Shown piece by piece: positions 13,350 through 52,210 of a DNA stretch of 64,000 nucleotides. Origin of the DNA: Gammaproteobacteria bacterium. Lineage in GTDB: Bacteria > Pseudomonadota > Gammaproteobacteria > CAKMZV01. The position numbers and the translations under genes were made by a program. Under the pieces are notes generated by a model, which saw nothing but the letters and a program-made list of their open reading frames with translations, ran no database searches and had not been told where the DNA came from. Within the stretch, counting starts at the first letter, position 1. Each line of letters starts with the position of its first letter. The stretch is from contig CBDCOD010000023.1 of assembly GCA_965219665.1 (NCBI GenBank), positions 56,114-120,113 of the forward strand. Direction: 5' to 3'.

Positions 13350-13921
13350 ATAACGCCAGCAAATCCCATAAAAGCAATTGCCATAAATCCAGCCGTAATA
13401 AAGGCAATTGGGGTTCCCTTAAATACTGATGGGACATCTGCTGCTTCTAAGCGCTCTCTAATTGTCGAAAATTGTGCTAAAACTAAGGTGAATCCTAATG
13501 AAGCCCCTAAGCCATACCAAAGCGAGCTAAGTAACGTGGTGTTTTGGTTGATATTAAGGACAGCAACGCCTAAAACAGCGCAGTTTGTAGTAATAAGGGG
13601 TAAATAAACGCCCATCATTTGGTATAGCTGCGGGTTGCTTTTATATAAGAAACTTTCAAGAGAACTTACGACAGCTGCAATTACCATAATAAAGCTGATG
13701 ATTCTTAGGTATTCCAGATTGAGTGGTTGCAAAACATAGTTCCATAACAGATAACTCAGCACTGCAGAAAGTGTGAGCACTAAGGTAGTGGCTAAGCCCA
13801 TTCCAATAGCTACTTCAGGGCGCTTTGAAGTTCCCATAAAGGGACAGAGACCTAAGAACTGGCTTAATATAAAATTATTGATCAGCGCAGTTGAGGTGAT
13901 AATGAGTAGAGCTTCAATCAT
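13346..13921 (-). CDS. rnfA: Rnf complex subunit A
   Basis: 191-aa polytopic protein closely matching RnfA (FLGLCPFMG, LPLITTNCAVLG, TIRERL). Confidence 0.9.
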   Translation of the reverse strand: MIEALLIITSTALINNFILSQFLGLCPFMGTSKRPEVAIGMGLATTLVLTLSAVLSYLLWNYVLQPLNLEYLRIISFIMVIAAVVSSLESFLYKSNPQLYQMMGVYLPLITTNCAVLGVAVLNINQNTTLLSSLWYGLGASLGFTLVLAQFSTIRERLEAADVPSVFKGTPIAFITAGFMAIAFMGFAGVI

Positions 13922-19065: not shown

Positions 19066-19087
19066 AGTTTAAATCATAATTGCTTGT

Positions 19088-20308
19088 TTAGCAGTTTGCA
19101 AATTGCCAAAGCGTATTTAAGCAAAAATGCTGATCATTGCTTAAGTTTGCTTCTAAATAGTCCTCTACAGATATACTTGGTCGTATTTGGCTTTCTAAGC
19201 GTCTTCCTCCAAAGTGGACGCGTGCAACGTATTGGATACCGTCTATTTCTAAGCAGTTGCCGCCTAAACCACATTGTGGATAACTCTCTAACCACCAGTG
19301 ATCTTTCCACTGTACCCATAAACGACGGTGCGCTTTAACCGTTTTGCTATTGCTATCACTTATATCAATTCTTGAGCCATTGCTTAGTGTAATATTATCA
19401 CAATGTGCGTTTATTCTTGTATTATCTTGTGCCCGAAAAGGGAAACGTCCCAATTGATGACCGCTGCTAGAGCGGTAAGCAGAATTAGAGGGTAGTCTTT
19501 TTATTGTGCTAATTTTTGCTGGCAAGGGCAAACCATTGCTATTTGTTGATGATTGAGCATTTGCAAACGCTCCCAAGCAGAGTACAAGTGCTTCACCCAG
19601 TTCATCCCGTAATTGTGTGAAGCTATGCAGTGTATAAACATCTTTAAAAAGCTCCCTGCTTTTAATTAAATGCACTGAATAACTACTGGTGCTAAGCTCT
19701 AATGGTTGTTGGTTATCTGCTGGTATAACCAGATTAGGTAAGAAACTGCCAACCGTATGATCTGCTCTACAAGGCGTATTATCCCCACGCTGTTTACGCT
19801 TTAAGTTACTGGCATTAGTAGCAACAACTGCCGCTATGCCTGTATTTCCACGGTAGTGTATACGCTCTATCACATCAGCATTATGCAGAGTGTTAGCAGT
19901 TGCCAAGTTAGTCCGTGCATTGTTTGGGACAATATACCAATAGCACTCACCTTGGGCATCAAAAAGAGGCTGCATGCCAATTGAGTACCATGGGATGCGT
20001 GTGACAGACCAATTTGTATTTGCACCTGTGCAATATGATCTTCCGTCCCCTTGATTATTTGAGCCATCACCGCACGGCAAAAAACCATATAAGCCAGTAA
20101 AAGGGTTGTTTGATCTAGAAGTCCTGAGGTGATACGTTCTGGCATAAGAGACTAAATGCCGCGCTATTTTGTGCAATTGGTGGGCATTATGTTGTTTTTT
20201 TTTGTTTTGCAATGGTAAAAGAGAAAGTGATGAGATAGCAATTACTGATAACAGTAAACTCATTACCAAAAATCCTTTTTGATTGCCGTAGTATCTGTAT
20301 TCATTCAT
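19088..20308 (-). CDS. GspK/PilX-like large minor pseudopilin (no Glu+5)
   Basis: N-terminal QKGFLVMSLLLSVIAISSL is a prepilin-like hydrophobic helix lacking E5. Cysteine-rich, 406 aa, adjacent to the pseudopilin gene. Confidence 0.4.
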   Translation of the reverse strand: MNEYRYYGNQKGFLVMSLLLSVIAISSLSLLPLQNKKKQHNAHQLHKIARHLVSYARTYHLRTSRSNNPFTGLYGFLPCGDGSNNQGDGRSYCTGANTNWSVTRIPWYSIGMQPLFDAQGECYWYIVPNNARTNLATANTLHNADVIERIHYRGNTGIAAVVATNASNLKRKQRGDNTPCRADHTVGSFLPNLVIPADNQQPLELSTSSYSVHLIKSRELFKDVYTLHSFTQLRDELGEALVLCLGAFANAQSSTNSNGLPLPAKISTIKRLPSNSAYRSSSGHQLGRFPFRAQDNTRINAHCDNITLSNGSRIDISDSNSKTVKAHRRLWVQWKDHWWLESYPQCGLGGNCLEIDGIQYVARVHFGGRRLESQIRPSISVEDYLEANLSNDQHFCLNTLWQFANC

Positions 20309-20612
20309 GATACTCTATCCATTTGTTTTTTTTCCATTTCCATATACTTCCGTTAACTCTAATTACGCCATGTATTGGGCTTTTATCATTAAGAATAGTA
20401 GTCGAAGGACTGGAGAGTAAGGGGCGATCGACAGCCTCTTTTGTTTGTTTTGTCGTTGTGATTGTTTTTTGTTCTAAATGTTGGCTAACTTGCTTGAATA
20501 ATTGTTGAAAAGGTTGACTTTCAACTGCCAAGGAATCTGTAGTCGTATTTGCTGTTATCAGCAGTAAGGCTCCATGCAAAAAAGGCGATAGAGTAGGGCG
20601 AGTTATCTTCAT
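20301..20612 (-). CDS. Small periplasmic protein, possible PilP/GspC-like secretin-interacting component
   Basis: Signal peptide, then Thr-rich linker and a short beta-rich C-terminus. The call rests mainly on position within the cluster. Confidence 0.3.
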   Translation of the reverse strand: MKITRPTLSPFLHGALLLITANTTTDSLAVESQPFQQLFKQVSQHLEQKTITTTKQTKEAVDRPLLSSPSTTILNDKSPIHGVIRVNGSIWKWKKNKWIEYHE

Positions 20613-20619
20613 AAATCAG

Positions 20620-21024
20620 TCAGTGGTATGTTAGTTCACAATTGGCATTGAGCGCCGCCGGTTCTTTACGCGATACAAATAAACGGCACATATTTAATTT
20701 CAATAAATGCTTGGAGTTAATGAGCTCAGATGCTGCTGTCCAGTATTGGTGCCATGCATGTTCGTTAATTGCAATAAAAGAAAGGGTTACTTTTTTATTA
20801 TGCCGCTCCCGCTTCAATTGCAGGGCAAGCTCATTTTTATGTGCAAGCCTTTGGAGATCATCTAACTGCTTATATAACTCTTGCAAATTAGTTTTTTGTG
20901 GCAATTTTGGACTGATTGGCCTGATGATGGGCTTATCGTTTATAGCATTATGACGCTCAAAATATATAAAATACATCATTGTGCAAATGCATAGACCCAA
21001 TAGTAATGACAGTACGCTATACAT
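20620..21024 (-). CDS. Bitopic membrane protein, possible GspM/PilO-like assembly component
   Basis: N-terminal TM helix followed by a predicted coiled-coil periplasmic region. Position only. Confidence 0.3.
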   Translation of the reverse strand: MYSVLSLLLGLCICTMMYFIYFERHNAINDKPIIRPISPKLPQKTNLQELYKQLDDLQRLAHKNELALQLKRERHNKKVTLSFIAINEHAWHQYWTAASELINSKHLLKLNMCRLFVSRKEPAALNANCELTYH

Positions 21025-21028
21025 ATTT

Positions 21029-21835
21029 CTACCCTTTTGCTTGAAGATTGATTTGTAAAAAAGCGTTTTTTTTGCCTAAATAATCAATAAATAGGGGAGG
21101 ATCAGGAACGAAATATTGCTGCGTAAGCGCAATATGCAATCGATTCCAATCACCAGCTTGCTGACTAAGCGTTTTATCTGCACTAGCCCACTGCAGCTGT
21201 AGCTCCATTTGTTTACCCTTCCATATAAAAGCATGTACTGAAATAGATGGAAATTCATCCAAAATACGCGCTAATTGTCGTATGTGTTTTGTATAGTCCT
21301 TGGGAGTGTAAACGGAAGGAGTTGCAGTTAGAAGTGGGGCAATATGGGCTGAGGATAGAGGCTCTTGCAGAGGTTGAGTATTGATGTAAGTATGCCACTG
21401 ATTTGCACAAAGCCCACTTAGAAAACATAGTAAACCCATCAAGATATAGCAAGCATATCTCATAGTCACGGAAATATTGCTTGTGTCAAAAAGAAATTTT
21501 TTTGAAGGCATAGTGTGCTGCTGTACCAGGTGTTGGTGCTTCTGATTTCGCTGAACCGGTTTAATCGCTAACAACCCCTGTTCATCGGACTCTACTAAGT
21601 ACAAACAATACGGGCTGAAAACACAAGCACTTGAACCATGGATTTGTATACCCATAGCCCAACTAGATACTCTAAGATGCTTAGCTTGTTGCAATTTGCT
21701 TGCCAAGCAGCCTGCAAAAGACCAGCCATGCAGTCTGTGCCAACTGTGTTGAAGATTATCTAAAATGAGAATACCGCTTGGCGGCAGCACACTGTTCGCC
21801 TTGATTTGATGACAAAAATATGTTTTGATGCTCAT
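21029..21835 (-). CDS. Bitopic protein with cytoplasmic N-domain, possible reduced GspL / PilM-N-like component
   Basis: Cytoplasmic domain of about 120 aa, a central TM (MRYACYILMGLLCFLSGLCA) and a periplasmic domain of about 130 aa. The gene overlaps the gspF-like gene, and the ORF start is uncertain. Confidence 0.3.
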   Translation of the reverse strand: MSIKTYFCHQIKANSVLPPSGILILDNLQHSWHRLHGWSFAGCLASKLQQAKHLRVSSWAMGIQIHGSSACVFSPYCLYLVESDEQGLLAIKPVQRNQKHQHLVQQHTMPSKKFLFDTSNISVTMRYACYILMGLLCFLSGLCANQWHTYINTQPLQEPLSSAHIAPLLTATPSVYTPKDYTKHIRQLARILDEFPSISVHAFIWKGKQMELQLQWASADKTLSQQAGDWNRLHIALTQQYFVPDPPLFIDYLGKKNAFLQINLQAKG

Positions 21836-22851
21836 AGCTGATACAAGGGCAGAAGAAAGGTAATAATAAATAGCAATACAAACATGGCAGATATCATGGT
21901 TAATACTGGCTCAACTAAGGGCTCTAACTGCTCTAAGTTGGTATGAACTCGTTGTTCAAAAAGTTGAGCCAATTTTTCCCAAAATAGCGACTGTTTTTGG
22001 GCGGAGTAAAAGGCAGCTGTATAGCGTGTTATTTCCTTGGGCACATCAGAATTCCCTAATATAGCAATAAAATCCTCTCCATTTAGCATACGCTGGCGAA
22101 CTTCTAACCATAATTTACGCTTCTTGGTAGACTTGATAGTGTGGCAAGCAAAATATAGCTGTTTATCCAATTGCATGCTCGTATGTTGCAGTAAACTCAT
22201 GTATCTAAAAAAACGAGCCATTTCAATATTGCTTATCAGGCCCTTGGGGTTAGTGTAAGATACTAGCCATTTAGCACTGTTTATTAGCTTGTGTCGCATA
22301 TGAAAGGTAAGAGCTATAAGTAAAAGGAGAGCAAACACTGCATATTGCAGATTGCTGCTTACCCAGTATGCCATTTGTAAAGCAAAACCAGGTTCTGGTA
22401 TAGCGACTTGTAGGGTAGGTGCTAGCAATAATATTGCAGCCATTAAAGCACAGCTAATTAAACAGAGAACTATTATGGGGTAACGTGCTATCTGCTTAAT
22501 CCGGTTTGTCCACCGTTGCTGCCATTTTAGCCATTTTGCCCATTGCTCAAAATGCGCTGCTAAGGTACCATCTAATTCGCCACTTCTACATAGTTGAATC
22601 AATCCAGGGTCATTGAACCATTGGGTTAGACTTAATGCCTGAGAGAAATCCTGACCGCTAAATAAGCGCTGCTCTATGTTCTGCAATTCTTTCTTCCAAG
22701 CATTATTTTGTATATTGGCGCACACCATAGTCACAGAAGTCATTGGAGTGAGCCCTTGTTTAAGCAGTAAGGCTGTTTCTTCACAAAAAAACAATTGAAA
22801 TTTTGCTTTGTTATGCGGATTTGGTGCGTGCTGAGTGAGTGCTTTAAGCAT
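21832..22851 (-). CDS. GspF/PilC-family inner-membrane platform protein (shortened)
   Basis: T2SSF-like cytoplasmic repeats, three TM segments and the hallmark C-terminal ...LLPLYQL ending. 339 aa against roughly 400 for typical GspF. Confidence 0.7.
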   Translation of the reverse strand: MLKALTQHAPNPHNKAKFQLFFCEETALLLKQGLTPMTSVTMVCANIQNNAWKKELQNIEQRLFSGQDFSQALSLTQWFNDPGLIQLCRSGELDGTLAAHFEQWAKWLKWQQRWTNRIKQIARYPIIVLCLISCALMAAILLLAPTLQVAIPEPGFALQMAYWVSSNLQYAVFALLLLIALTFHMRHKLINSAKWLVSYTNPKGLISNIEMARFFRYMSLLQHTSMQLDKQLYFACHTIKSTKKRKLWLEVRQRMLNGEDFIAILGNSDVPKEITRYTAAFYSAQKQSLFWEKLAQLFEQRVHTNLEQLEPLVEPVLTMISAMFVLLFIITFLLPLYQL

Positions 22852-24403
22852 TTATATCCCCCCCGAATACCCTATCTACCTCAGTTTGAGTGGTGCACTC
22901 TGATAGCACTAAATCTTGTGCAGAATCATGGAGACGCTTGCTCCATGTCAGATCACTCAATTGTGTAGAATGGTGGATATTGTGTGCCATCTCTAACACC
23001 AATACCCTACCATCGTAACCACTTTCAGCGCATTGAGAGCAACCTTTTGATTTACAAACAGTACATGCTTTGCGCAGCAAGCGTTGTGCAATGCACGCAA
23101 GAGATTGTTCAATAAGCACCTTACTATCTACCCCTAAACTTTGCATGCGGTGATAAATGCCTTCAACATCTCCTGCATGCACTGTTGCCAACACTAAATG
23201 GCCTGTCATGCTAGACTTTAAAGCCAATTCAGCTGTTTTAGCATCCCGAATTTCACCTAGCAAAATGACGTCAGGATCTTGTCTTAAAACTGCTTTAAGG
23301 ACATTGTAAAAATCCATACCATATTCAGAGCGCACGTTTATTTGCCTAATGCCTGTCTGACGGTACTCAACTGGATCTTCTAAAGTAATGATATTAAGCT
23401 GTTCATAGTCTAACAAATTAAGTAGGGTATATAAGGTCGTGCTTTTACCGCTACCGGTAGGTCCTGCAATTAAAACGAGCCCAGAGGGTTGTCGCATTAC
23501 GTTAGTAAGTGCTTGTTGTGTGATTGGCGGTAACTGCATATCTTGCAAGTCCAATTTATGGGAATTTGATAGAAAGCGAAGTACAAGATGTTCTCCCGCA
23601 ATGCCTGGCAACAGTGAGAGTCGCACATCAGTATCTGTATCCCCATACTGGAATGAGAAGCGTCCTTCTTGAATGGTATGAATTGATGTACTATCTACAT
23701 TTGCCATGATTTTATAGCGGATACAGAGTGCCTTCCATAAATGGAGATGCATATAGTGCATAGAGCGCAAAACTCCATCAATTCGATAACGAATCAGGCA
23801 GGCATGTTGTTGTGGATCACAGTGTATGTCAGAGGTCTTAAGCATTATTGCCTCATGCAGTAATGCGTAAGCAAGGCGCACAACTAAGTGCTGTTCCTCC
23901 TGTATCACGTTGCGAAGTTGATGCGGATCAGAGCTAATCGTACATAATATAGTGCTTACTTGGTTGTCATTTTGCAGTTGTTTTAGATAGTTTTGAAACT
24001 GCGAGTAGTACACCCAGCTCGTTTTTATGGGATGGGCAAAGTTGATTTTTTCCAATAAGATGTGTAGTGCCTGATCGGCATAAGGTGCCGCCATCGCAAC
24101 AATTAAATGTCCTTCAGGATCAACATATAGTGGTAGTATCAAGTTATTTTTAATCCAGGCTATACCCAGGATATCAGCCCAATCGGGTTGTATGGCAATT
24201 GCATCCTCTGCTTCTAAATACTCCATAGCATAATTCCTGCTAATATAAGCACTCCATTTAGAATGCTCCAGCCAGTTCGCCTTTAGTATAAATTTGACAG
24301 GGTCGTCCTCGGTTAAATTTGCTTGATAAAGTGCAATTTCATATTGAGTTGCTGTTATAACACCCTGATCCAGCAAAGAGGATAATAAGCTATAGTTAGG
24401 CAT
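22844..24403 (-). CDS. GspE/PilB-family secretion ATPase
   Basis: Walker A GPTGSGKSTT, Walker B DPDVILLGEIRD, His box ATVHAGD and a tetracysteine zinc motif CTVCKSKGCSQC. An N1E-like N-terminal domain is present. Confidence 0.9.
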   Translation of the reverse strand: MPNYSLLSSLLDQGVITATQYEIALYQANLTEDDPVKFILKANWLEHSKWSAYISRNYAMEYLEAEDAIAIQPDWADILGIAWIKNNLILPLYVDPEGHLIVAMAAPYADQALHILLEKINFAHPIKTSWVYYSQFQNYLKQLQNDNQVSTILCTISSDPHQLRNVIQEEQHLVVRLAYALLHEAIMLKTSDIHCDPQQHACLIRYRIDGVLRSMHYMHLHLWKALCIRYKIMANVDSTSIHTIQEGRFSFQYGDTDTDVRLSLLPGIAGEHLVLRFLSNSHKLDLQDMQLPPITQQALTNVMRQPSGLVLIAGPTGSGKSTTLYTLLNLLDYEQLNIITLEDPVEYRQTGIRQINVRSEYGMDFYNVLKAVLRQDPDVILLGEIRDAKTAELALKSSMTGHLVLATVHAGDVEGIYHRMQSLGVDSKVLIEQSLACIAQRLLRKACTVCKSKGCSQCAESGYDGRVLVLEMAHNIHHSTQLSDLTWSKRLHDSAQDLVLSECTTQTEVDRVFGGDINA

Positions 24404-24561
24404 ACATTCTTATCCATTCATACGAAAACCATCCTATAAAAAGCAGAGTAATACTGCTAATAGTAAGCATGGCAATTTCTATCATCATGCGTTGACGATA
24501 CTTGGGAGATGTTGGAAAGAGTTTAGGGTTGGTAGAAGGAAGCCAAGACAGTTTCATTTTC

Positions 24562-26013
24562 TTATATTTCTAAAACGGTTGGACGAATGAAAATAACCAA
24601 CTCGGTGTTACGTTTGCCATTTTGCTTATTTCCTAAGGATTGCAAATAAGGTAAATAGGATTTTTGATCTTGTGTGCTCTGCTGTATAAGTCCTGCAATA
24701 ATGGCTATTTCACCCGACTTTACTCTTAAAACAGATTCTAATTCTCTCTCCTGTATTATCGGTATTTCTGAAACAACACCACGATCTGCAAGCAGCGGGT
24801 GAGGGTCTCTTACCACACCAGACATCCGAGATAGTATAGGGCGAATATTTAATGTAACCATACCACTGTGTTCGATAAAAGGGGTAAGTGATAAAATCAA
24901 ACCGACTGGTATAGTATTGGCTTTTGTATTGAAGTTAGTAACAGATGTATTTTGATTTAAAGAAGTTATTGAGTCGATAGTGAAATACACCAAGTTATCA
25001 ACCACTTTAAGTACTGCTGTTTGATTATTGATAACTTGCAATTGAGGTGAAGAAAGCACTTTGCTGCTACCGAATTGGTTAAACCAGCTAATCTGCGTGC
25101 TTAAATCAGCATTGGGTGCATTGATGAAGGTGTTTAATTGACCAGAAATTGATGGTATAACAGGCGTGTTCTGAGATAACGTATTATTCCCTAATACTGC
25201 ATTCCACTGTATTCCTTGTTGATTATCCTCACTAAGTTCAATTTCAATAATTGCAACATCTAAAATAACTTGACGCTTTTGTGTAGCAACGATCTGGCTA
25301 ATATACTGATCAAGTTGGATATGCATGTATTGAGAAGCCAATGCTGTAATCAGTCCTGCTTCAGGATTGACAATCACAGACTCCTTGTTCCCTACTAAAC
25401 GCTCAGTATTGCGTTGTATATCTTCCCAAAATTGATGCTTGAATTGATTATGAATTTCTGTTCCTGCTTTTTTTGTATTCAAAGCTGAGTTAATGTTTTG
25501 GTTAAAGGACAGTGCAGAGGCACTTTGCCTCTGCATATTAAGGATAGGAATGCTATGGCTTTTCCAGTAAGGTGCATTGCTTAAAAACACCACACTATCG
25601 TTGTTAAATTCTGCACGCATATCTATTTGTGCTGCTACCTGATTGAATAATGTACTGAGCGCTACTTTTTTGCCTTGATAGTTAATGGCTTTATCACTCT
25701 GTATAGCTATAGAATAGTTAAAAGACAACCTCTGACTTAAGCCAGTTAATAATGTAGTTAACGGCATATTTTTAATATCTAAATCAACCGTTTCTTGCCA
25801 AATATCATACTGAATCATTGCGCTTTTTTCTGTGTGCGCTTGTGGCTTAGATTGCGCAATAAAGTTATATATGTGAGGCGAGGGTGAAAATACGGGATGA
25901 CGTGTTGCCGTAGTGCCTTCTTCACTACTTTTCTCTTTTTGAGAAGTGCTACATGCTGATAATGCTAAAAACATAACAGCAACCCCTTTTTTTATCCGGA
26001 TACACGTTGCCAT
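24562..26013 (-). CDS. Secretin (GspD/PilQ family), probable lipoprotein
   Basis: C-terminal secretin domain ending ...VPYLQSLGNKQNGKRNTELVIFIRPTVLEI. The ORF-track start is 26055; the start at 26013 (MATCIRIKKGVAVMFLALSAC) gives a signal peptide plus an LSAC lipobox. Confidence 0.8.
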   Translation of the reverse strand: MATCIRIKKGVAVMFLALSACSTSQKEKSSEEGTTATRHPVFSPSPHIYNFIAQSKPQAHTEKSAMIQYDIWQETVDLDIKNMPLTTLLTGLSQRLSFNYSIAIQSDKAINYQGKKVALSTLFNQVAAQIDMRAEFNNDSVVFLSNAPYWKSHSIPILNMQRQSASALSFNQNINSALNTKKAGTEIHNQFKHQFWEDIQRNTERLVGNKESVIVNPEAGLITALASQYMHIQLDQYISQIVATQKRQVILDVAIIEIELSEDNQQGIQWNAVLGNNTLSQNTPVIPSISGQLNTFINAPNADLSTQISWFNQFGSSKVLSSPQLQVINNQTAVLKVVDNLVYFTIDSITSLNQNTSVTNFNTKANTIPVGLILSLTPFIEHSGMVTLNIRPILSRMSGVVRDPHPLLADRGVVSEIPIIQERELESVLRVKSGEIAIIAGLIQQSTQDQKSYLPYLQSLGNKQNGKRNTELVIFIRPTVLEI

Positions 26014-27155
26014 TGATTGCCCCCAATAGATTCGACCACTCCCGTTAATTCCCACTCTAATAATTTGCTTTGAGTGCTCGGAAAGTCATAATTGTTTAAC
26101 TCTAATAATTGCTCGAATGACCATACATCAAAGCCCATTAGTGACAAGAGTGCATCGCTTGTTTCATCAAATTGCGTTGCAGACGCTTGCTGCGTGGCAT
26201 GTTCAAGATCTATAACACGTAGAATATCATTCGCGCAAGTAAGCAGATGTGCTCCTTGTTGGATAATTTTATGACAGCCTGCGCTTACTGGAGAAAGGGT
26301 ACTGCCAGGTAGTGCAAATACTTCTCTCCCTTGCTCTAAGGCTTGTGTTGCTGTGATGAGTGTGCCACTTTTCACTGCTGCTTCAATCACGACTGTTGCC
26401 AGTGAAATGCCACTAATAATGCGATTGCGCGGTGGAAAATTGGCAGAATTCGGGGGAGTAGATAGAGGCACCTCACTAACCAGCGCACCGCCATTTTCTA
26501 ATATAGAGTCAGCTAGTTTGATATGCTGTTTGGGGTAGAGAATGTTGACGCCTGTCCCAAGAATAGCTATTGATGGGGCAGATGTACTCAAGGTGGCTTG
26601 ATGCGCGATGCCATCAATGCCCAGCGCCAATCCACTACAAATCACCCATCCTTTGTTGGCTAATTCCGTAGCTATTTCATGTGCAGAACGCGTTCCCTGT
26701 GCTGTTGGTTTTCGAGTACCTACTATTGAAACCGCATTTTGCTGCAGGCACTCTAATGAACCTCTAACATACAAAACTGGAGGTGGGTCATAGATAGTTT
26801 TAAGCAAAGAGGGGTAATTACTATTATTAAATTCAAGCAAGTGAATTTTTTCTTGTTTGCATTTTTCCAGAGTTAGCTCTATTTTGGAGGCTGCTTGCAG
26901 CCATTTACTGAATAGTCGAGAGTTGTGCTTTTCTAGCCAGAGTGCAAACACATCATGACAGAAAGTGGGTTTTTTCTGCAAATACTGACCAAAGGAGCGG
27001 CTTCCTAATCCTTGGGTTAGCGACCACTGCAAACAAAAATAATCATTCCTATGATTACGCGCAGTAGTGCTTTCAATTTGCTCGTGTTTCATACCGCGCA
27101 CTATAAAAACAATGCATGGACAATCTTGTGGGTCAGTGCTATATAAAATAGACAA
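25992..27155 (-). CDS. dprA: DNA processing protein DprA (Smf)
   Basis: Rossmann-like DprA core: VSIVGTRKPT, LALGIDGIAHQATL, ILGTGVNILYP, FPPRNRIISGIS, KSGTLITATQALEQGREVFALPG. Confidence 0.9.
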   Translation of the reverse strand: MSILYSTDPQDCPCIVFIVRGMKHEQIESTTARNHRNDYFCLQWSLTQGLGSRSFGQYLQKKPTFCHDVFALWLEKHNSRLFSKWLQAASKIELTLEKCKQEKIHLLEFNNSNYPSLLKTIYDPPPVLYVRGSLECLQQNAVSIVGTRKPTAQGTRSAHEIATELANKGWVICSGLALGIDGIAHQATLSTSAPSIAILGTGVNILYPKQHIKLADSILENGGALVSEVPLSTPPNSANFPPRNRIISGISLATVVIEAAVKSGTLITATQALEQGREVFALPGSTLSPVSAGCHKIIQQGAHLLTCANDILRVIDLEHATQQASATQFDETSDALLSLMGFDVWSFEQLLELNNYDFPSTQSKLLEWELTGVVESIGGNQWQRVSG

Positions 27156-45191: not shown

Positions 45192-45262
45192 ACAAAACAC
45201 TGAAATAACACAGGTTGCTGAGAATTTTCTAGATTTTCTGATAACTTAGTAAGCAAACATTG

Positions 45263-45483
45263 TTGCATATTATGCAATGCATTATAATACCCTCAATCAG
45301 TTTCGTGAAACATTGAAAATAACTATAACGCAAGTTGTTTTTAATTTTAAAAATCAACAGCTTATATTGAATTGCATTTTATGCAATTCTTTTGATTTTC
45401 TTTCAAAAAAGACCGCATATTAAAGTTAATGCGTTATGAATGATATTCCTTTTTTAACTTTTAAAATCAATGCGTTAACGCAT
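45263..45483. promoter_or_regulatory. Three perfect palindromes in an AT-rich intergenic region
   Basis: TTGCATA-T-TATGCAA at 45263-45277, GAATTGCAT-TTT-ATGCAATTC at 45369-45389 and ATGCGTTAACGCAT at 45470-45483. The half-site AATGCGTTA also recurs at 45428. Confidence 0.4.
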
Positions 45484-45582
45484 AGAATTGTAAAAAAAAG
45501 GAAGTATTGCTAATAAGTGCTTGATTTTATGAATACATATTGATTAGAATGTTTAACCGTTGTTGCACAAATTAAGATAAAG

Positions 45583-45783
45583 ATGAAAAACATATCGCGC
45601 CTCATTGTTTTTAAGAAAATCTCCCTCCTGATGGCAGGTGCTAGTTTATTTATAGTCCTGGCTTCCAGCGAAACCCATACAGATTTAGACATAGTTCGTG
45701 GCAAATTAGTACAGTTAGAATTAAAATCTATGCCAACAAAATCATCTACGCACTACCCTGCCCTACTTAAAATATTCACTTAA
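45583..45783 (+). CDS. Small secreted hypothetical protein (66 aa)
   Basis: ORF with a signal-peptide-like N-terminus, lying downstream of a palindrome-rich intergenic region. Could be spurious. Confidence 0.2.
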   Translation: MKNISRLIVFKKISLLMAGASLFIVLASSETHTDLDIVRGKLVQLELKSMPTKSSTHYPALLKIFT

Positions 45784-46036
45784 AGATACTCAAAGTTTAG
45801 TGAGCATCAATTTTTTGGTATTTTGAGACAGCATGAAGCGAGATTAGACGGTTCAGTATATACATCGTGTGAATGGGATAAGTCCTGCTATTTACTATAA
45901 TTGATTTGTGTATCAGTATGAAACCCATGTAAATAATAATATTTTCAACCTTGCTAACGTGCTAGGTTACTGCTTTGCTCTGACAGCTACACTTTCTATC
46001 TTATAGAAATATCTCTTTCCTGTTACAATCGCGCCT

Positions 46037-46441
46037 ATGCCGCTCGCAGTTAAAAGCCTGTTTCATCCTTTATTCATCAATGCTTACTGCCTTACTGACT
46101 TAGAAAAAATCCCTCCTATACGCGCCAATGGCATAGACTCTTTAGAAGATAATCGCTGGCGTACTGATACTATCCATCAAGCATTTGTCTCTTTAGACTC
46201 GTTATTTGAGTACTACCCTTTATTTGCACACCCTATGGTTCAGCGTGTCCAGCAACGCTATAACGCATACAATGTGCCCGTTAGTTGTGATACACTCTTT
46301 AATTGGCATTTCTGGGGTTTTTTGCGATGTCCAAATGAGCGTAGTGAGTGGCGCTATTTTTCCTTGTCTGAAATTTTTCTAAATCGCTTTATAATACCAG
46401 TAAAAATGCATAACATTAAGGTCAGAAACTTTATACGATAA
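46037..46441 (+). CDS. Hypothetical protein (134 aa)
   Basis: ORF preceded by a TGTTACAAT -10-like element. No family recognised. Confidence 0.35.
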   Translation: MPLAVKSLFHPLFINAYCLTDLEKIPPIRANGIDSLEDNRWRTDTIHQAFVSLDSLFEYYPLFAHPMVQRVQQRYNAYNVPVSCDTLFNWHFWGFLRCPNERSEWRYFSLSEIFLNRFIIPVKMHNIKVRNFIR

Positions 46442-46466
46442 GCACAAAAAAAAACCTGCTTTTAGT

Positions 46467-46751
46467 TTGTTGGGTTTGAGTACAAATAGTTGGTTGCCTT
46501 CAACTCCAAACGATCGCACTGAGCAGCGCTTTCTCGGAGATGCTTATTTAGATTTTAACCATTATGCTAAAGCACGTGGATTCTGGTACTACCACCAGAA
46601 ACGATACAGGTCATTTATCCGAGCATTAGCAACATTAGATAGCAGCGATAGTAATAATCCTCTACATCCTCCTCTGCGCTCAATTTATGAGCAGATTGAT
46701 TTTCCATGCTACGCACCTATCAAGTCACCCTTTGAGTTAAACAATGCTTAA
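46467..46751 (+). CDS. Hypothetical protein (94 aa; TTG start in the track, with the frame open upstream to 46404)
   Basis: Reading frame is +1 relative to the preceding ORF and overlaps its 3' end. No family recognised. Confidence 0.25.
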   Translation: MLGLSTNSWLPSTPNDRTEQRFLGDAYLDFNHYAKARGFWYYHQKRYRSFIRALATLDSSDSNNPLHPPLRSIYEQIDFPCYAPIKSPFELNNA

Positions 46752-46875
46752 AAGTCTATTATTATCAGCTACGCTTTGCGCTTTGCTTATCCTGGGCGGA
46801 CCTGTTTCATGCGCAACTAAAGGTGAGCTCTTTTTACCACCAACAGATACTTCAAAAGATACCGGTAGTAAATAG
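46744..46875 (+). CDS. 43-aa small signal-peptide/lipoprotein-like peptide directly upstream of the T1SS ABC gene
   Basis: MLKSLLLSATLCALLILGGPVSC|ATKGELFLPPTDTSKDTGSK. The stop lies 2 nt before the ABC transporter ATG. Below the ORF-track size cutoff. Confidence 0.25.
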   Translation: MLKSLLLSATLCALLILGGPVSCATKGELFLPPTDTSKDTGSK

Positions 46876-46877
46876 CG

Positions 46878-49010
46878 ATGGTTACGCAACAGGTAAATAA
46901 CAATTTGCTAGAGCAATTCTGTTGCTTATTGCAAGCGCAACACCACGCGATAGATTTTAAGTCTTTACAAGCCCTATCAGCAACGCCTTCTGTTAATTTG
47001 AATGACTTAGAGCAAATGGCGAGCCAATTGCACTTTAGAGCAAATATTATCAAGCAGCCGTGGAACAAACTCCTACTTACAGAATCGCTGCCTTTGCTGT
47101 TACAGTGCAAAAATGGACAAGCTACTACGCTGCTACACATTGAAAATAATCAGGCGATTGTTGCAGAATTGACGAGTACAGGTACCTCTAAGCAGCGTTT
47201 TCACAGTTTAGAAAATTTAGAGCAAGAGTATGCTGGAATAGCATTCTCTATAGAGCCCATTATAGATGTTCTTGCAAGATCAGGCGAAAGCCATCTATTC
47301 TCTGAATTCACTAAAAAAGAGTTTGTTTGGCGTCTTTTTGAGATTTTCCTTGCATCTAGCATTATCGGTGTTTTTCAGTTAGCGCTGCCGTTGTTTACGA
47401 TGAATGTGTATGACAAGGTTATTCCTCATGCAGCAGAAGATACGCTATGGGTGCTTGCAAGCGGCATTGTGCTTGTTTTTATCATGGAGTATGCTTTACG
47501 CTCAACACGCTTGCATATACTAGAATCTTTGTCCCAAAGAATAGCAAAAGCGATGGATTTACAACTGTTTCGCAAACTAATGGGACAGCCACGCCAGATA
47601 GAAGAGAGTATAGGGGTTAATACCGAACTTTTTCAAGAAATGCAAGGATTTCGCCAGTCTTTTTTCTCAAAAATACTAGTGGACTTGATTGAATTGCCTG
47701 TTATCTTTTTATTCCTATTTGTTATCTATTTAATTTCCCCTGCCCTCACCTTCATACCAATAATGACTGGCATAGTCGCCGTCATAGTGCACTTTATTCA
47801 CTATATTCCAATCACTAAATTAGGTGGAGAGCTTTTTGTATACCGCCGCCAGCGTGAGAATTTTTTGATAGAGACTTTACAGGGTAATGAGTCTATACAA
47901 CTAAGCAATGCATTTGCGCGCTTTATTAAATTTTGGCAGGCGCAATTGAGCCACGGAATGAATTTGGCGCGGAAATCACAATTATGGAATGGCAATTTGA
48001 GCAATATCACACCGATTATGGTGCAATCAGTTAGCGTCTTGGTTATATTTTTTGGTGCATTCCAGATATTTGGTGGTCAACTTAGTGTGGGCGGACTTAT
48101 CGCAGTTTCCATTCTTTCTGCACGCTCCATTTTACCTATCCTTAATTGCTCTTCCGCCTTAGTACGATTATATAGCAGCATGCCCATGATAAGACAATGG
48201 CGGAAAACTCTAAAGAAATCAGGAATATATGATGATACTTTATCATTAGCCAATAGTTCAAAAAAAACAGGGCTTCTGCAATTTAAGGCAGTTAGCTTTA
48301 GTTACGCCGGTAGTAGCCGTAATCATGTGGAAAACATAAGTTTCACTATAACACCAGGTGAACACATTGCTGTTATTGGCAGGTCCGGCGCTGGGAAAAG
48401 TACTTTACTACGCCTTGCCGCTGGCTTGGAAACACCGCAACAAGGACATATTCTCTTAGAATCCTATAATTTAAAAGATTTACATACTTTGGAGCAACAC
48501 AATCATATTAGTTTTATGCCACAAAACCCTTCCTTCTTCGCAGGAACACTACGTGACAATATAAACTTAAATAAGCACCCTGATGGCGACATATTCTTAC
48601 AGAATATTATCAAAGACCTAGAGATAGCTGATTTAATGGATAATGTGTCGGATTCTGGACTGGGCTTTAATGTGGGGGATAGAGGAAATCGTTTATCAGG
48701 TGGTCAAAAACAGTTAGTGGCTTTAATGAGAGCCTTGATTGGAAATCATTCCATCTATCTGCTTGATGAACCTACATCAGGCATTGATTCTGGCTTAGAG
48801 TTGCAAATTATTAATTATTTGAAAGAAAAACTGCGCTCTAAAACATTGATTCTTGTGACGCATCGCAGTAGCCTATTCGCTCTTGTGGATCGTATGATAG
48901 TCTTTGAAGGTGGAAAAATAGTTGCAGATGGTCCAAAAGAGGAAATTTTACAACAATTCTATAAAACGCAGGCGCCTATGAATAATGGGGCTTGGAGTGA
49001 TCGTGTTTAG
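46878..49010 (+). CDS. Type I secretion ABC transporter (HlyB-like) with an N-terminal C39-like domain lacking the catalytic Cys
   Basis: N-terminal C39-fold region of about 130 aa aligning to the HlyB C39-like domain with no Cys at the catalytic position. Six-TM domain, Walker A GRSGAGKST, signature LSGGQKQ and Walker B YLLDEPTS. Confidence 0.85.
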   Translation: MVTQQVNNNLLEQFCCLLQAQHHAIDFKSLQALSATPSVNLNDLEQMASQLHFRANIIKQPWNKLLLTESLPLLLQCKNGQATTLLHIENNQAIVAELTSTGTSKQRFHSLENLEQEYAGIAFSIEPIIDVLARSGESHLFSEFTKKEFVWRLFEIFLASSIIGVFQLALPLFTMNVYDKVIPHAAEDTLWVLASGIVLVFIMEYALRSTRLHILESLSQRIAKAMDLQLFRKLMGQPRQIEESIGVNTELFQEMQGFRQSFFSKILVDLIELPVIFLFLFVIYLISPALTFIPIMTGIVAVIVHFIHYIPITKLGGELFVYRRQRENFLIETLQGNESIQLSNAFARFIKFWQAQLSHGMNLARKSQLWNGNLSNITPIMVQSVSVLVIFFGAFQIFGGQLSVGGLIAVSILSARSILPILNCSSALVRLYSSMPMIRQWRKTLKKSGIYDDTLSLANSSKKTGLLQFKAVSFSYAGSSRNHVENISFTITPGEHIAVIGRSGAGKSTLLRLAAGLETPQQGHILLESYNLKDLHTLEQHNHISFMPQNPSFFAGTLRDNINLNKHPDGDIFLQNIIKDLEIADLMDNVSDSGLGFNVGDRGNRLSGGQKQLVALMRALIGNHSIYLLDEPTSGIDSGLELQIINYLKEKLRSKTLILVTHRSSLFALVDRMIVFEGGKIVADGPKEEILQQFYKTQAPMNNGAWSDRV

Positions 49011-50247
49011 GTCTGCCGCAACTATCTGGTTACTTGCGGCTATCTTAGGGGCTTTCCTTGCTTGGGCTGCTTTATTTGAGTTAGATCAAGTCGTTCGCTC
49101 ACAAGGAAAGGTTGTACCCAGTGGACAGAACAAGTTAGTTCAACATTTAGAGGGTGGCATCATTGCAGATATTTTTATCAATGAAGGGGACCTTGTAAAA
49201 ATAAATCAGCCACTTTTTCGTTTAGAAAACATCTCTGCTAAAGCACGGCTGTTAGATGTTGAGATAGATAGGTTGTCATTACTATACCGTAAAACCCGCT
49301 TAGAGCAGCAGATACAAGGCAAAAAAACTATTCGCTTTCCTACAGACTCTCATGCTGAAGCTGCTCAAATCAAACAGAATGAACTGGAGTTGTACCGCTC
49401 TGAAATAGCAGATTTTTTGAACCAACAAAATGTCCTAATAACTTCTATTAAATTCAAAAAAGCAACTTTAACCGAACAAGAAATTCTATTGGACAACCTG
49501 AAGAATGAGTTAAGGTTAGCACAAGAAGACTTGGTATTGCTACGGCGGCTAGAAAAAAGCGGCGCAGTTTCACGTCGCGAATTATTAGTCTCAGAAGGCA
49601 AAATACAAGCAATCAAAACACGTCTCGATAGTACAAACGCTTCCATCCCATCTGCAAAAGCAGAGATAAAAACCGCACAAGCACGCTTAAAGCAAAACAA
49701 ATCAAATTACACATTGAGTCTACAAAATGAACTCAATGATATTAGCCTCAGACTAAGCAAAGCTGTTGAACAGCAACGCGCTAATAAAGACCGTGAACAG
49801 CGCACTATCATCAATTCACCTGTTGATGGTATTATAAATCGCCTCTTAGTTAACACAAAAGGCGGCATCATTCAACCAGGAGATACTTTAGCAGAGATTA
49901 CGCCTTTGAACGAAATGCTCATAGTAGAAGCGCAAATTGCAGTACGTGATCGAGGTGATATTTGGCTAAATCAGGCAGTAAAAATCAAAATAAGTGCTTA
50001 TGATTTTACAAAATATGGGGTTTTGGAAGGATACATCACTCAAATCAGCCCCGATAGCTCCAGCGATAATCAAGGTAATTTTTTCTACACAGCCCGTATC
50101 AATGTTAGTCAAAATTTTGGTGAGGACAAACCTATTATTCCAGGTATGGTAGCCCAAATAGATATCATTACCGGAAAGAAAACTATACTGGAATACTTGC
50201 TTAACCCTATTCGTCGCTCACTATCTACTGCATTACGCGAGAATTAG
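48985..50247 (+). CDS. HlyD-family type I secretion periplasmic adaptor
   Basis: N-terminal TM, a long coiled-coil and a C-terminal beta domain. Overlaps the ABC gene. Confidence 0.85.
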   Translation: MGLGVIVFRSAATIWLLAAILGAFLAWAALFELDQVVRSQGKVVPSGQNKLVQHLEGGIIADIFINEGDLVKINQPLFRLENISAKARLLDVEIDRLSLLYRKTRLEQQIQGKKTIRFPTDSHAEAAQIKQNELELYRSEIADFLNQQNVLITSIKFKKATLTEQEILLDNLKNELRLAQEDLVLLRRLEKSGAVSRRELLVSEGKIQAIKTRLDSTNASIPSAKAEIKTAQARLKQNKSNYTLSLQNELNDISLRLSKAVEQQRANKDREQRTIINSPVDGIINRLLVNTKGGIIQPGDTLAEITPLNEMLIVEAQIAVRDRGDIWLNQAVKIKISAYDFTKYGVLEGYITQISPDSSSDNQGNFFYTARINVSQNFGEDKPIIPGMVAQIDIITGKKTILEYLLNPIRRSLSTALREN

Positions 50248-50337
50248 AAAGAATCTTTACATGGTACTTGTTTATAATATGGTGTAAGCATAGTTTATTC
50301 TAATCTGTATTAAACCGTATTCTGAAAATAAAACCGT

Positions 50338-51510
50338 ATGACAACAGTTGGCATTGACTCTATAGCACTATATACTCCTTCTTTTTATATGGACTTGGCA
50401 GAACTTGCAACAGTGCATAATTGCCCTAAAGATAAATATTATTCAGGCATAGGACAAGAGCGCATGAGCGTCCTACCTCCAGATGAAGATGCGGTAACTT
50501 TGGCCGCAAATGCTGCAAACATAACACTTTGCGGTGAAGACCTGAGTAAAATAAAGGCGGTGCTGTTTGCAACTGAAACAAGTGTTGACCAATCAAAATC
50601 TGCAGGCGTTTTCCTACACCAACTCCTCAATTTGCCAGATGATTGCCGCATTATTGAAATGAAACAGGCTTGCTATAGTAGCACATTTGCCTTGCAAACT
50701 GCCCGTATGATGGTACAAGCCAATCCCGAAAGCAAAGTGCTCGTTATTGGATCTGATAATGCGCGTTACACGCTAAATACTCCTGGAGAAGCCACTCAAG
50801 GATGTGGGGCCGTTGCTATGCTGGTTAGCAGTGATCCGCGTATTTTACAACTCAATGATCAATCAGCAGTATACAGTAGCCATACTATGGATTTTTGGCG
50901 ACCTAACTACCTAAACTCAGCTATTGTAGATGGCAAATATTCTACAAAAATTTATTTATCTGCCCTTAAAGAGTGCTGGAAGCGATACCACTCTCTTTCA
51001 GGTAGGTTGCATGAGATTAGTTATCTTGTATTTCATCTTCCATTTACACGCATAGCTGAGAAGGCATTGAAAATTTTATTTAGTGGGGACAAAACCAAAT
51101 TACAGGATAGTTTAGAGCGTGCCAAATCCAGTTTAGTGTACAACCGCTTAGTCGGAAACTCCTACACAGCCTCTCTTTACATAGCGCTCTGCTCCTTGTT
51201 GGATAACACTGATACAGACCTAAGTTACGAGCAAATTGCATTGTTTAGTTATGGTTCTGGCTTTACAGCAGAGCTTTTCACAGGTACGCTGGTACAAGGC
51301 TATAAGGAGCACCTTCATGCCGAGCAGCACCGCGATATTTTACAGAAACGTAAAGCTCTAAGTTACGAAGAATATTTGCATTTTTACAATTATCAACTTC
51401 CTGAAAGTGGTGAAGAACATACCATTAAATCTTATACAAAAGGTCGTTTTAGATTAGCAGGAGTTAACAACCACAAGCGCATATATGAACAGAGTAAACA
51501 TTATGAATAA
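50338..51510 (+). CDS. mvaS: Hydroxymethylglutaryl-CoA synthase family protein
   Basis: Catalytic triad context: [10 protein letters not shown] (Cys), [21 protein letters not shown] (His), YTASLYIAL and FSYGSG match bacterial HMGS. Confidence 0.8.
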
Positions 51511-51898
51511 AACACAAAAATTACATCAAAAGCAGAAAGGATTTACGCTAATAGAAATTATGGTCGTGGTGGTCATTCTTGGTATTTTAGCTACCATTGT
51601 GGTGCCTAAAATTCTGGATAGACCTGATGAAGCACGCGTTCAAAAAGCCAGGCAAGATATCCGTGCTTTCGAAGGTGCCCTCAGTTTATACAAATTGGAT
51701 AATTTTTCTTACCCGGATACCGGAGAAGGTTTAGGAGCATTGCAAGGGCGCTATATGGAACGCATACCAAATGATCCTTGGGGAAATGAATACCAGTACA
51801 TCAGCCCAGGAACCTCCGGCAGTTACGACATCTATTCCTTCGGCGCAGATGGCACTCCTGGTGGTGATGGTGTCAATGCAGACATTGGTAACCTTTAA
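51503..51898 (+). CDS. gspG: Type II secretion major pseudopilin GspG
   Basis: [25 protein letters not shown] prepilin motif and a GspG core ([33 protein letters not shown]). The ORF track starts at an upstream Met at 51485. Confidence 0.85.
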
Positions 51899-52210
51899 GT
51901 CATCCGGTAACTTGTTTCTGTTATACAATAAGAAAACCAATGCAATCAGAACCTTTTTCTCATCCATACTGAGTTGAAAATGACGCAACTGTACGTTTTT
52001 TTCGGTACACTACTCGCCCAAAAAAAAGAACCCGAAAACGCGCTAGGCAGTCAAAATACTCAAAATGACCCACCCTAGTCCAAATTGTGTCCGCTTAACT
52101 ACCCAATGACGCACCTTATAGGACTTTATCAAGATCTTGTGGCTCTTTTATCTGCAGTCAGTAACAAGGCTGCATTTTAAGTATACTGTTATTTTTTGTA
52201 GGAGAACAAA

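What the first reader, a model, noticed from the sequence alone, without database searches (positions are those of the whole stretch)
50338..51898. A lone HMG-CoA synthase whose stop codon overlaps the start of an orphan gspG
The HMGS-family enzyme (catalytic Cys, His and Glu contexts present) has no HMG-CoA reductase, mevalonate kinase or polyketide beta-branching partners (ACP, KS, ECH) anywhere in the window. Its last codons (TAT GAA TAA) contain the ATG of the GspG pseudopilin (t-ATG-AAT-AAA), so the two are translationally coupled. GspG is otherwise separated from every other secretion gene. Linking an isoprenoid or beta-branching enzyme to a pseudopilin is not an arrangement I know.
Basis: partly seen in the sequence, partly recalled or inferred. 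Interest (0 to 1): 0.7.

Follow-up and report, generated by a model that had tools for sequence, protein, structure and literature searches.

The report
Conserved mevalonate-synthase / pseudopilin two-gene operon
An ordinary mevalonate-pathway enzyme gene (mvaS) and an ordinary type II secretion pseudopilin gene (gspG) overlap by 8 bases; this pairing is kept in five related uncultured gammaproteobacterial lineages while everything around it has been reshuffled, which most likely reflects shared expression rather than shared chemistry.

Summary
mvaS (50338-51510) ends in TAT GAA TAA, and the gspG ATG (51503) lies inside those codons, giving an 8-nt overlap. Both genes are standard family members: HMGS scores 453 bits on TIGR01835 (cutoff 360) and GspG scores 151 bits on TIGR01710 (cutoff 89).

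The "lone HMGS" puzzle is resolved. In relatives the gene order is mvaA-fni-mvaS-gspG (L001) or fni-mvaS-gspG (L088). In one 2.1-Mb chromosome, mvaA-fni lies about 590 kb from mvaS-gspG. The window's own species also has an HMG-CoA reductase on the same 556-kb contig. The enzyme is therefore a normal mevalonate-pathway MvaS whose operon broke upstream of it.

The mvaS-gspG link is real and old. Five lineages (HMGS 65-76% identical to one another) keep a stop/start overlap (ATGA, TGATG or ATGNNTAA). Their flanks are otherwise unrelated. None of 152 other HMGS loci with room downstream has gspG there.

The best reading is that gspG lost its own expression signals and depends on mvaS transcription and translational coupling, so the pair cannot be split. 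A true physiological link between isoprenoid synthesis and secretion is not excluded, but no evidence supports it. No canonical gsp genes are in the window. I rate this moderately interesting: a new operon variant built from known parts.

The parts
50338..51510 (+). mvaS, bacterial HMG-CoA synthase (390 aa)
   Evidence: It scores 453 bits on TIGR01835 against a cutoff of 360 and has Pfam HMG_CoA_synt_N and HMG_CoA_synt_C. It scores 300-314 bits to solved MvaS structures 3LEH, 1X9E and 1XPK, against about 135 bits to PksG/CurD. E80, C112 and H233 are invariant.
51503..51898 (+). gspG, type II secretion major pseudopilin (131 aa). It has a 13-aa leader, a G|FTLIE cleavage/methylation motif and a C-terminal [17 protein letters not shown] loop.
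   Evidence: It scores 151 bits on TIGR01710 against a cutoff of 88.85 and has Pfam T2SSG plus N_methyl. It aligns to PulG 5WDA and XcpT 2KEP. It is 74-79% identical to the mvaS-linked GspG of four other lineages.
51503..51510 (+). 8-nt stop/start overlap (ATGAATAA), the proposed site of termination-reinitiation coupling
   Evidence: This is read directly from the sequence. The equivalent overlaps are ATGA in L087 and L003, ATGATG in L001 and ATGCATAA in L088.
51485..51502 (+). Alternative, probably unused, upstream in-frame ATG of gspG. The weak purine-rich stretch GAACAGAG here replaces the GAGGAA Shine-Dalgarno of relatives.
   Evidence: Anti-SD duplex energy is +0.1 kcal/mol before 51485 and -2.4 before 51503, against -5.3 to -6.3 in relatives. 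Relatives start at the overlapping ATG.
50248..50337 (+). 90-nt spacer between lssD and mvaS. It contains a promoter-like site (TTTACA-16-TATGGT, 50256-50283) and no terminator-like hairpin. Transcription of mvaS-gspG starts here or reads through from lssBD (inferred).
   Evidence: The promoter/terminator scan supports this. The consensus match is not above the shuffle expectation.
46878..50247 (+). lssB-like ABC exporter (46878-49010) and HlyD-family adaptor (48985-50247). These are upstream neighbours in this lineage only and are possibly co-transcribed.
   Evidence: TIGR03375 scores 544 bits, below its 693 cutoff. TIGR01843 scores 352 bits, above its 209 cutoff. Neither gene is present next to mvaS in any relative.
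52153..52174 (+). First terminator-like hairpin downstream of gspG (7-bp stem followed by TTTTAAGTAT), 255 nt after the gspG stop and 37 nt before ilvI
   Evidence: It appears in the scan and persists in the centroid fold. Its function is untested. It could instead be an ilv leader element.

Best explanation
mvaS and gspG form a two-gene expression unit. It is the surviving tail of an ancestral mevalonate operon, mvaA-fni-mvaS-gspG.

mvaS is the ordinary first committed enzyme of the mevalonate route to isoprenoids. gspG is the ordinary major pseudopilin of a type II secretion system whose other genes lie elsewhere.

gspG has no promoter of its own. Its ribosome-binding region lies inside the last mvaS codons and its ATG overlaps the mvaS stop. 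It is therefore made from the mvaS message, largely by ribosomes that terminate on mvaS and restart on gspG.

Any breakpoint between the two genes would destroy gspG expression, so the pair stays together. Meanwhile the operon was broken upstream, between fni and mvaS, and downstream several times. In the window's lineage the pair ended up behind a type I secretion gene pair and in front of ilvIH.

Shown: the gene identities, the overlap, its conservation, the ancestral operon, and the presence of a reductase elsewhere. Inferred: co-transcription, translational coupling, the absence of a biochemical link, and the existence of the rest of the T2SS.
For: - **Identities:**
- **Overlap:** it is present in five lineages, as ATGAATAA, ATGA, ATGATG, ATGA and ATGCATAA.
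- **Ribosome-binding site:** a GAGGAA/GAAGGGA Shine-Dalgarno sits in the conserved HMGS 'YEE/YEG' codons of relatives, at -5.3 to -6.3 kcal/mol. It is weak in the window (-2.4), which makes coupling more necessary there.
- **Internal signals:** there is no promoter-like site on the + strand between 50400 and 51500, and no terminator between the genes.
- **Ancestral order:** L001 has ffh | dctPQM, mvaA, fni, mvaS, gspG, gst. L088 has fni-mvaS-gspG-recG.
- **Operon breakage:** in the 2,106,115-bp chromosome, ffh | mvaA-fni is followed by hsdMSR at about 600 kb, while mvaS-gspG lies at about 10 kb.
- **Unrelated flanks:** across window, L001, L003, L087 and L088, the only gene shared apart from the pair is uvrC in L087.
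- **Specificity:** 0 of 152 other HMGS loci with room downstream have gspG there, while 114 of 165 have HMGR and 125 of 165 have fni within 10 kb.
- **Selection on GspG:** it is under purifying selection, at 67-79% identity across the lineages, as conserved as HMGS.
- **Composition:** GC is uniform at about 40% across the pair.
- **Precedent:** in Legionella, T2SS genes are dispersed over five loci and some are co-transcribed with unrelated genes (PMC6617341).
Against: - There are no expression data, so co-transcription and coupling are inferred from anatomy alone.
- The junction was remodelled at least twice (three overlap types, not matching the HMGS similarity pattern) yet always kept an overlap. 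This could mean active selection for coupled dosage rather than mere inability to separate.
- A major pseudopilin is normally needed in far greater amounts than a biosynthetic enzyme, which sits oddly with simple 1:1 coupling.
- I could not show that the rest of a T2SS exists in these genomes.
- About 7 flank rearrangements with none at the junction is only marginally non-random: (2/3)^7 is about 0.06 if the three junctions were equal targets.
Confidence: 0.6

Rival explanations
1. There is a genuine physiological link. The cell ties pseudopilin supply to mevalonate/isoprenoid flux. Possible reasons are that pseudopilus assembly, pseudopilin modification or envelope homeostasis in this clade depends on an isoprenoid lipid, or that both respond to the same acetyl-CoA or growth signal. 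The operon would then be kept by selection for co-regulation.
For: The mvaS-gspG junction outlived the mvaS-fni junction, that is, the enzyme's link to its own pathway, in at least three lineages. The overlap was rebuilt in three different forms but never lost. The arrangement spans soil or sediment long-read assemblies and a TARA ocean sample.
Against: No known biochemistry connects GspG to isoprenoids, and no paper holds both terms. No other secretion or pilin-modification gene travels with the pair. In the nearest outgroups gspG is not near mvaS. An overlapping gene pair offers no neutral breakpoint, which explains its persistence without invoking function.
Confidence: 0.15
2. The gspG-like gene is not part of a classical T2SS. 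It would serve another type-IV-filament machine, such as the divergent secretin/ATPase/platform cluster at 18.3-26 kb, or act as an orphan pilin in a genome that lacks GspC-F and GspL-M.
For: No canonical gsp gene lies in the 64-kb window or in the 21-kb loci of relatives. A filament machine with only weak family scores lies in the window. [quoted passage not shown]
Against: The protein scores far above the GspG equivalog cutoff. It keeps the GspG-specific C-terminal loop DG..GG.G.NADIGN seen in PulG and XcpT. The 18-26 kb cluster carries its own pilin-like genes. Strong purifying selection on a GspG-type fold argues for a cognate T2SS.
Confidence: 0.1
3. The HMGS is not a mevalonate-pathway enzyme. 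It would be a PksG-like beta-branching or otherwise repurposed condensing enzyme acting with unknown partners.
For: There are no pathway partners in the window.
Against: It is above the TIGR01835 equivalog cutoff. It scores 300+ bits to MvaS structures against about 135 to PksG/CurD. mvaA and type-2 IDI lie directly upstream in relatives. There is no ACP, KS or ECH anywhere nearby.
Confidence: 0.02
4. The juxtaposition is an assembly chimera or annotation artefact.
For: The source is a metagenome assembly.
Against: The same junction occurs in at least 12 independent assemblies made with different assemblers and from different samples, including closed 2.06-2.11 Mb chromosomes.
Confidence: 0.01

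Closest known systems
Bacterial mevalonate-pathway operons containing mvaS (for example mvaS/mvaA in Enterococcus and Staphylococcus, or mvaA-fni-mvaS in Oceanospirillales-type gammaproteobacteria)
   Same: The enzyme family and catalytic residues are the same. Relatives keep the mvaA-fni-mvaS order. Most other HMGS loci have HMGR and fni within 10 kb.
   Different: Here the operon carries a secretion-system structural gene as its last, overlapping cistron. In the window's lineage mvaS has been cut off from mvaA and fni but not from gspG.
Dispersed type II secretion genes of Legionella (lsp genes in five loci, PMC6617341)
   Same: T2SS genes lie away from a single gsp operon, and some are co-transcribed with non-secretion genes.
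   Different: In Legionella, lspG stays with lspF and lspH-K. Here gspG alone, without gspH-K, is attached to a metabolic gene.
Translationally coupled overlapping gene pairs (ATGA / TAATG type, as in the E. coli trpE-trpD and trpB-trpA junctions; textbook knowledge, not tested here)
   Same: There is a stop/start overlap of 1-8 nt with the Shine-Dalgarno inside the upstream coding sequence.
   Different: Classical coupled pairs encode subunits or steps of one complex or pathway. These two products have no known common function.
PksG/CurD-type HMGS cassettes for polyketide beta-branching
   Same: They share the thiolase-fold HMGS superfamily.
   Different: Similarity is much lower (about 135 bits). 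There are no ACP, KS or ECH partners, so this is not a member.

Membership tests
Bacterial HMG-CoA synthase MvaS (TIGR01835) | Whole-protein score above the curated equivalog cutoff | tested here: met
   453.3 bits against a cutoff of 360.35, covering 4-383 of 390 aa.
Bacterial HMG-CoA synthase MvaS (TIGR01835) | Catalytic Glu/Cys/His triad in the conserved motifs | tested here: met
   E80 ([10 protein letters not shown]), C112 (KQACYS) and H233 (FHLPF) are invariant in 8 homologues and aligned to 3LEH.
Bacterial HMG-CoA synthase MvaS (TIGR01835) | Genomic association with other mevalonate-pathway genes | tested here: inconclusive
   This is not met in the 64-kb window. It is met in relatives L001 and L088. 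An HMGR (P0252) lies on a contig of the same length (556,269 bp) as the one holding this species' HMGS and GspG. The lower-pathway kinases were not located.
Bacterial HMG-CoA synthase MvaS (TIGR01835) | Condenses acetyl-CoA with acetoacetyl-CoA | not testable with these tools
   This needs an enzyme assay.
PksG-like HMGS of beta-branching cassettes | Closest similarity to PksG/CurD and neighbouring ACP, KS and ECH genes | tested here: not met
   132-137 bits to PksG/CurD against 300-314 bits to MvaS. No such neighbours were found.
T2SS major pseudopilin GspG (TIGR01710) | Score above the equivalog cutoff with a full-length T2SSG domain | tested here: met
   151.1 bits against a cutoff of 88.85. 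Pfam T2SSG covers 1-107 of 108 positions.
T2SS major pseudopilin GspG (TIGR01710) | Short basic leader, G|F cleavage site, Glu at +5 and a hydrophobic helix | tested here: met
   The sequence is [13 protein letters not shown]|[18 protein letters not shown]_methyl scores 41 bits.
T2SS major pseudopilin GspG (TIGR01710) | C-terminal GspG-specific (calcium-site) loop | tested here: met
   [17 protein letters not shown] aligns with GADGKEGGSDNDADIGN of XcpT 2KEP. Metal binding itself was not tested.
T2SS major pseudopilin GspG (TIGR01710) | Encoded within, or accompanied in the genome by, gspC-F, H-M and O | tested here: inconclusive
   No canonical gsp gene lies in the window or in the relatives' loci. 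The rest of the genome could not be searched.
Translationally coupled overlapping cistrons | Stop of the upstream gene overlaps or abuts the start of the downstream gene, with the SD inside the upstream gene | tested here: met
   The overlap is 8 nt in the window and 1-8 nt in four relatives. The SD is -5.3 to -6.3 kcal/mol in relatives and weak (-2.4) in the window.
Translationally coupled overlapping cistrons | Downstream translation depends on upstream translation | not testable with these tools
   This needs reporter or nonsense-mutant experiments. No conserved RNA structure was found at the junction.

The most novel reading that the evidence does not exclude
In this gammaproteobacterial clade, type II secretion (or pseudopilus assembly) is functionally tied to mevalonate-derived isoprenoids. 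Selection for co-dosage of HMG-CoA synthase and the major pseudopilin would then explain why the gspG link outlasted mvaS's link to its own pathway genes.
Probability: 0.12. Interest if true: 0.6.

Novelty: new variant of a known kind. Interest (0 to 1): 0.33.

Why it matters
Both proteins are textbook members of their families, so nothing new is learned about either one. What is new is a conserved, overlapping operon that joins a lipid-precursor enzyme to a secretion-machine subunit, in a poorly known lineage with genomes of about 2 Mb.

It is a clean natural example of a start/stop overlap holding two functionally unrelated genes together more durably than a pathway operon holds its own steps. 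That is relevant to anyone who infers function from conserved gene neighbourhood: guilt-by-association would mislead here.

If the link turned out to be physiological, it would point to an unrecognised dependence of type II secretion on isoprenoid lipids.

Tried and rejected
- **Exact-protein look-ups.** Look-ups of the window's own HMGS, GspG and the species' HMGR (P0001, P0121, P0252) found no indexed contig. I therefore could not walk beyond the window. I relied on contig-length fingerprints instead.
- **JGI metagenome scan.** It found no close relatives; the best HMGS identity was 54%. It served only as a negative background.
- **RNA structure at the junction.** RNAalifold predicted 0 pairs.
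- **Rfam.** A scan of the window found only two tRNAs and no leader or riboswitch near the pair.
- **gspG-ilvI spacer.** Its fold is no more stable than shuffles, z = +1.07.
- **Beta-branching HMGS idea.** Rejected.
- **Horizontal-island idea for the pair.** There is no GC anomaly.
- **18-26 kb cluster as the missing GspDEF.** All its scores are far below the GspD/E/F cutoffs, and its secretin is closer to MshL.
- **Outgroup proteins upstream of gspG.** They have no convincing Pfam family even at E <= 0.5.
- **Taxonomy.** It could not be fixed beyond 'Gammaproteobacteria bacterium', the record title of L003.

Full report
**1. The observation**

The + strand carries an ORF at 50338-51510 (390 aa), followed by an ORF that ends at 51898. 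The mvaS frame ends with TAT GAA TAA at 51502-51510. The ATG at 51503-51505 opens the second frame, so the two genes overlap by 8 nt. An earlier in-frame ATG at 51485 exists. It has no ribosome-binding complementarity (+0.1 kcal/mol), and it has no equivalent in relatives: in L087 and L001 an in-frame stop lies just upstream of the overlapping ATG, and all four relatives start there. I take 51503 as the start. Either choice overlaps mvaS.

**2. What the two genes are**

The first protein is a bacterial HMG-CoA synthase.
- It scores 453 bits on TIGR01835, cutoff 360.
- It has both Pfam HMGS domains.
- It scores 300-314 bits to solved MvaS enzymes (3LEH, 1X9E, 1XPK) but only about 135 bits to the beta-branching enzymes PksG and CurD.
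- E80, C112 and H233 are invariant among eight homologues.

The second protein is a major pseudopilin GspG.
- It scores 151 bits on TIGR01710, cutoff 89.
- Its T2SSG domain is full length.
- Its leader and cleavage motif read [13 protein letters not shown]|FTLIE.
- Its C-terminal loop [17 protein letters not shown] aligns with that of PulG and XcpT.
- Its only peculiarity is a deletion of about 14 residues in the alpha-beta loop relative to PulG and XcpT.

**3. The surroundings in the window**

I ran Pfam or NCBIfam on the 56 ORFs of >=120 aa. Most are housekeeping genes: ftsH, tgt, yidC, mnmE, rnf, metG, mfd, argJ, uvrC, metK, rsmE, ilvIH, ilvC, thrS, infC, ilvE-like and tpiA. There is no HMG-CoA reductase, mevalonate kinase, ACP, KS or ECH, and no canonical gsp gene.

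Two secretion-related features do occur.
- An lssB-like ABC exporter and a HlyD adaptor lie at 46878-50247, immediately upstream on the same strand.
- A divergent type-IV-filament cluster lies at 18304-26055 on the minus strand, next to dprA. Its secretin is MshL-like (186 bits, below the 250 cutoff). Its ATPase scores 320 bits on PilB and 314 on GspE, both far below cutoff. It also has a platform protein and pilin-like ORFs.

So gspG is separate from canonical T2SS genes, but it is not far from every secretion gene.

**4. Relatives**

The nearest HMGS homologues are unnamed metagenome proteins. I recovered context for four lineages whose HMGS is 65-76% identical to the window's.

| Locus | Source | Gene order around the pair |
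|---|---|---|
| L001 | 317-kb contig | ffh(-), dctPQM, mvaA, fni (TIGR02151, 376 bits), mvaS, gspG, gst |
| L003 | closed 2.1-Mb chromosome OZ255827.1 | GATase, mvaS, gspG, then minus-strand methyltransferase and glmS |
| L087 | 2.6-kb Logan contig | uvrC, mvaS, gspG |
| L088/L089 | TARA ocean and one other assembly | fni, mvaS, gspG, recG |

In all four, the gspG ATG overlaps the mvaS stop. The forms are ATGA (L087, L003), ATGATG (L001) and ATGCATAA (L088). Cluster membership shows the same pair in at least 12 assemblies. Apart from the pair itself, the loci share nothing with the window or with each other, except uvrC in L087.

**5. Specificity**

The genome scan (GTDB species representatives) and the JGI metagenome scan, together with the loci fetched by exact-protein look-up, gave 165 HMGS loci.
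- Only the five from this clade have gspG adjacent.
- None of the other 152 with room downstream does.
- 114 of 165 have HMGR and 125 of 165 have fni within 10 kb.

The pairing is therefore a clade-specific, single-origin trait. It is not a general property of HMGS genes.

**6. Why the HMGS looks 'lone'**

In the L003-lineage chromosome, mvaA-fni sits next to ffh at about 600 kb and is followed by a type I restriction-modification system. mvaS-gspG lies at about 10 kb. The ancestral operon ffh | mvaA-fni-mvaS-gspG, still seen in L001, was therefore cut between fni and mvaS.

The window's species has a reductase (P0252, 61% identical to L001's). The enzyme is thus an ordinary mevalonate-pathway MvaS, and its partners are elsewhere in the genome.

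**7. How it probably works**

- No promoter-like site lies on the + strand inside the 3' two-thirds of mvaS, and no terminator lies between the genes.
- In relatives, the conserved HMGS C-terminal codons (tat/tac GAG GAA) double as a Shine-Dalgarno for gspG, at -5.3 to -6.3 kcal/mol.
- In the window this is degraded to GAACAGAG (-2.4), so restart by terminating ribosomes is likely to matter more here.
- No conserved RNA structure was found at the junction.
- The 90-nt lssD-mvaS spacer has a promoter-like match and no terminator, so transcription may begin there or read through from lssBD.
- The first terminator-like hairpin downstream of gspG is at 52153-52174.

I infer a bicistronic mvaS-gspG message with translational coupling. 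None of this is experimentally shown.

**8. Why the pair persists**

Across the five lineages, the upstream neighbour of mvaS changed at least three times (fni, GATase, uvrC, lssD). The downstream neighbour of gspG is different in all five. The mvaS|gspG junction never broke.

The simplest cause is that overlapping genes leave no neutral breakpoint and gspG has no expression signals of its own. Against pure inertia, the junction was rebuilt in three forms that do not follow HMGS similarity: the window and L088 share the 8-nt type, while the window's closest relative L087 has ATGA. That hints at selection for keeping an overlap.

GspG is under purifying selection, with 67-79% identity among the lineages. 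None of the other 119 GspG homologues listed lies on a contig whose length matches those of these genomes, so this is probably their main gspG. That evidence is weak, because only the top 120 hits are listed.

**9. Outgroups**

The next-closest GspG proteins (72-78% identical) are not linked to mvaS. They follow a conserved block of three family-less proteins and a TolC-like OEP, and they precede a second pseudopilin. In one of these genomes, HMGS lies 31 kb away on the same contig. In this wider group, then, gspG is generally detached from a classical gsp operon. This recalls the five dispersed lsp loci of Legionella (PMC6617341).

**10. Comparison, novelty and verdict**

The components are known. 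The arrangement is not described: a full-text search for 'HMG-CoA synthase' together with 'pseudopilin' found no paper. I classify it as a new variant of a known kind: a T2SS major pseudopilin gene embedded as the overlapping last cistron of a mevalonate operon, and retained after that operon fragmented.

| Explanation | Confidence |
|---|---|
| Expression hitch-hiking without a biochemical link | about 0.6 |
| Genuine isoprenoid-secretion link | about 0.12-0.15 |
| Non-T2SS role for the pilin | about 0.1 |
| Beta-branching HMGS or assembly artefact | effectively excluded |

Interest is moderate, 0.33. Its 'lone enzyme' puzzle is explained. Its sense that the linkage is unusual is justified, but the linkage is more likely regulatory or structural than functional.

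Noticed in passing
window 18304-26055 (-), next to dprA 25992-27155 (-): This is a divergent type-IV-filament gene cluster. It has a secretin closest to MshL (186 bits, below cutoff), a PilB/GspE-like ATPase, a PilC/GspF-like platform protein and three ORFs with no family. It also has a 406-aa ORF with a pilin-like N-terminus and a 253-aa prepilin-like protein (GFSILE). Its position beside dprA suggests a DNA-uptake pilus, but this is untested.
   Followed up: partly
window 45200-50247 (+): An lssB/lssD-like type I secretion pair is preceded by an AT-rich stretch (about 30% GC, 45200-46000) and two ORFs without any family (46037-46441 and 46467-46751). No TolC-like partner is in the window. 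This block is absent next to mvaS in every relative, so it may be an insertion.
   Followed up: partly
L083 5375-10965; L084 1672-7483; L090 5417-11195: In the nearest outgroups, gspG is preceded by a conserved block of three proteins without Pfam families (about 530, 262 and 283 aa) plus a TolC-like OEP. It is followed by a 171-216-aa N-methyl pseudopilin. This gene neighbourhood matches no family in Pfam, and I did not look for it in the literature.
   Followed up: partly
L171 12545-17573: A type I restriction-modification system (hsdM, hsdS, hsdR) sits directly after mvaA-fni. That is exactly where mvaS-gspG follows in L001. It marks the operon breakpoint in the 2.1-Mb chromosome.
   Followed up: no
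window 51503-51898: This GspG, like many 128-136-aa homologues, lacks about 14 residues of the alpha-beta loop present in PulG (5WDA) and XcpT (2KEP).
   Followed up: no
window 50318-50340: mvaS itself has no Shine-Dalgarno complementarity upstream of its ATG (+0.4 kcal/mol) and sits in an A/U-rich leader. Other genes in the window, such as ilvI and ilvC, have clear SDs.
   Followed up: no
L003 1006-8775: Upstream of the mvaS-gspG pair in the closed chromosome lie a GmrSD-type restriction endonuclease and an HTH/M78-peptidase plus DUF4411/PIN pair. This is a defence or toxin-antitoxin style neighbourhood near the record start.
   Followed up: no
window 8972-13921 (-): An rnf-type electron-transport gene set (RnfA, B, C, D and G-like) is followed by a SOUL haem-binding-domain protein (8972-9580), a family best known from eukaryotes.
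   Followed up: no
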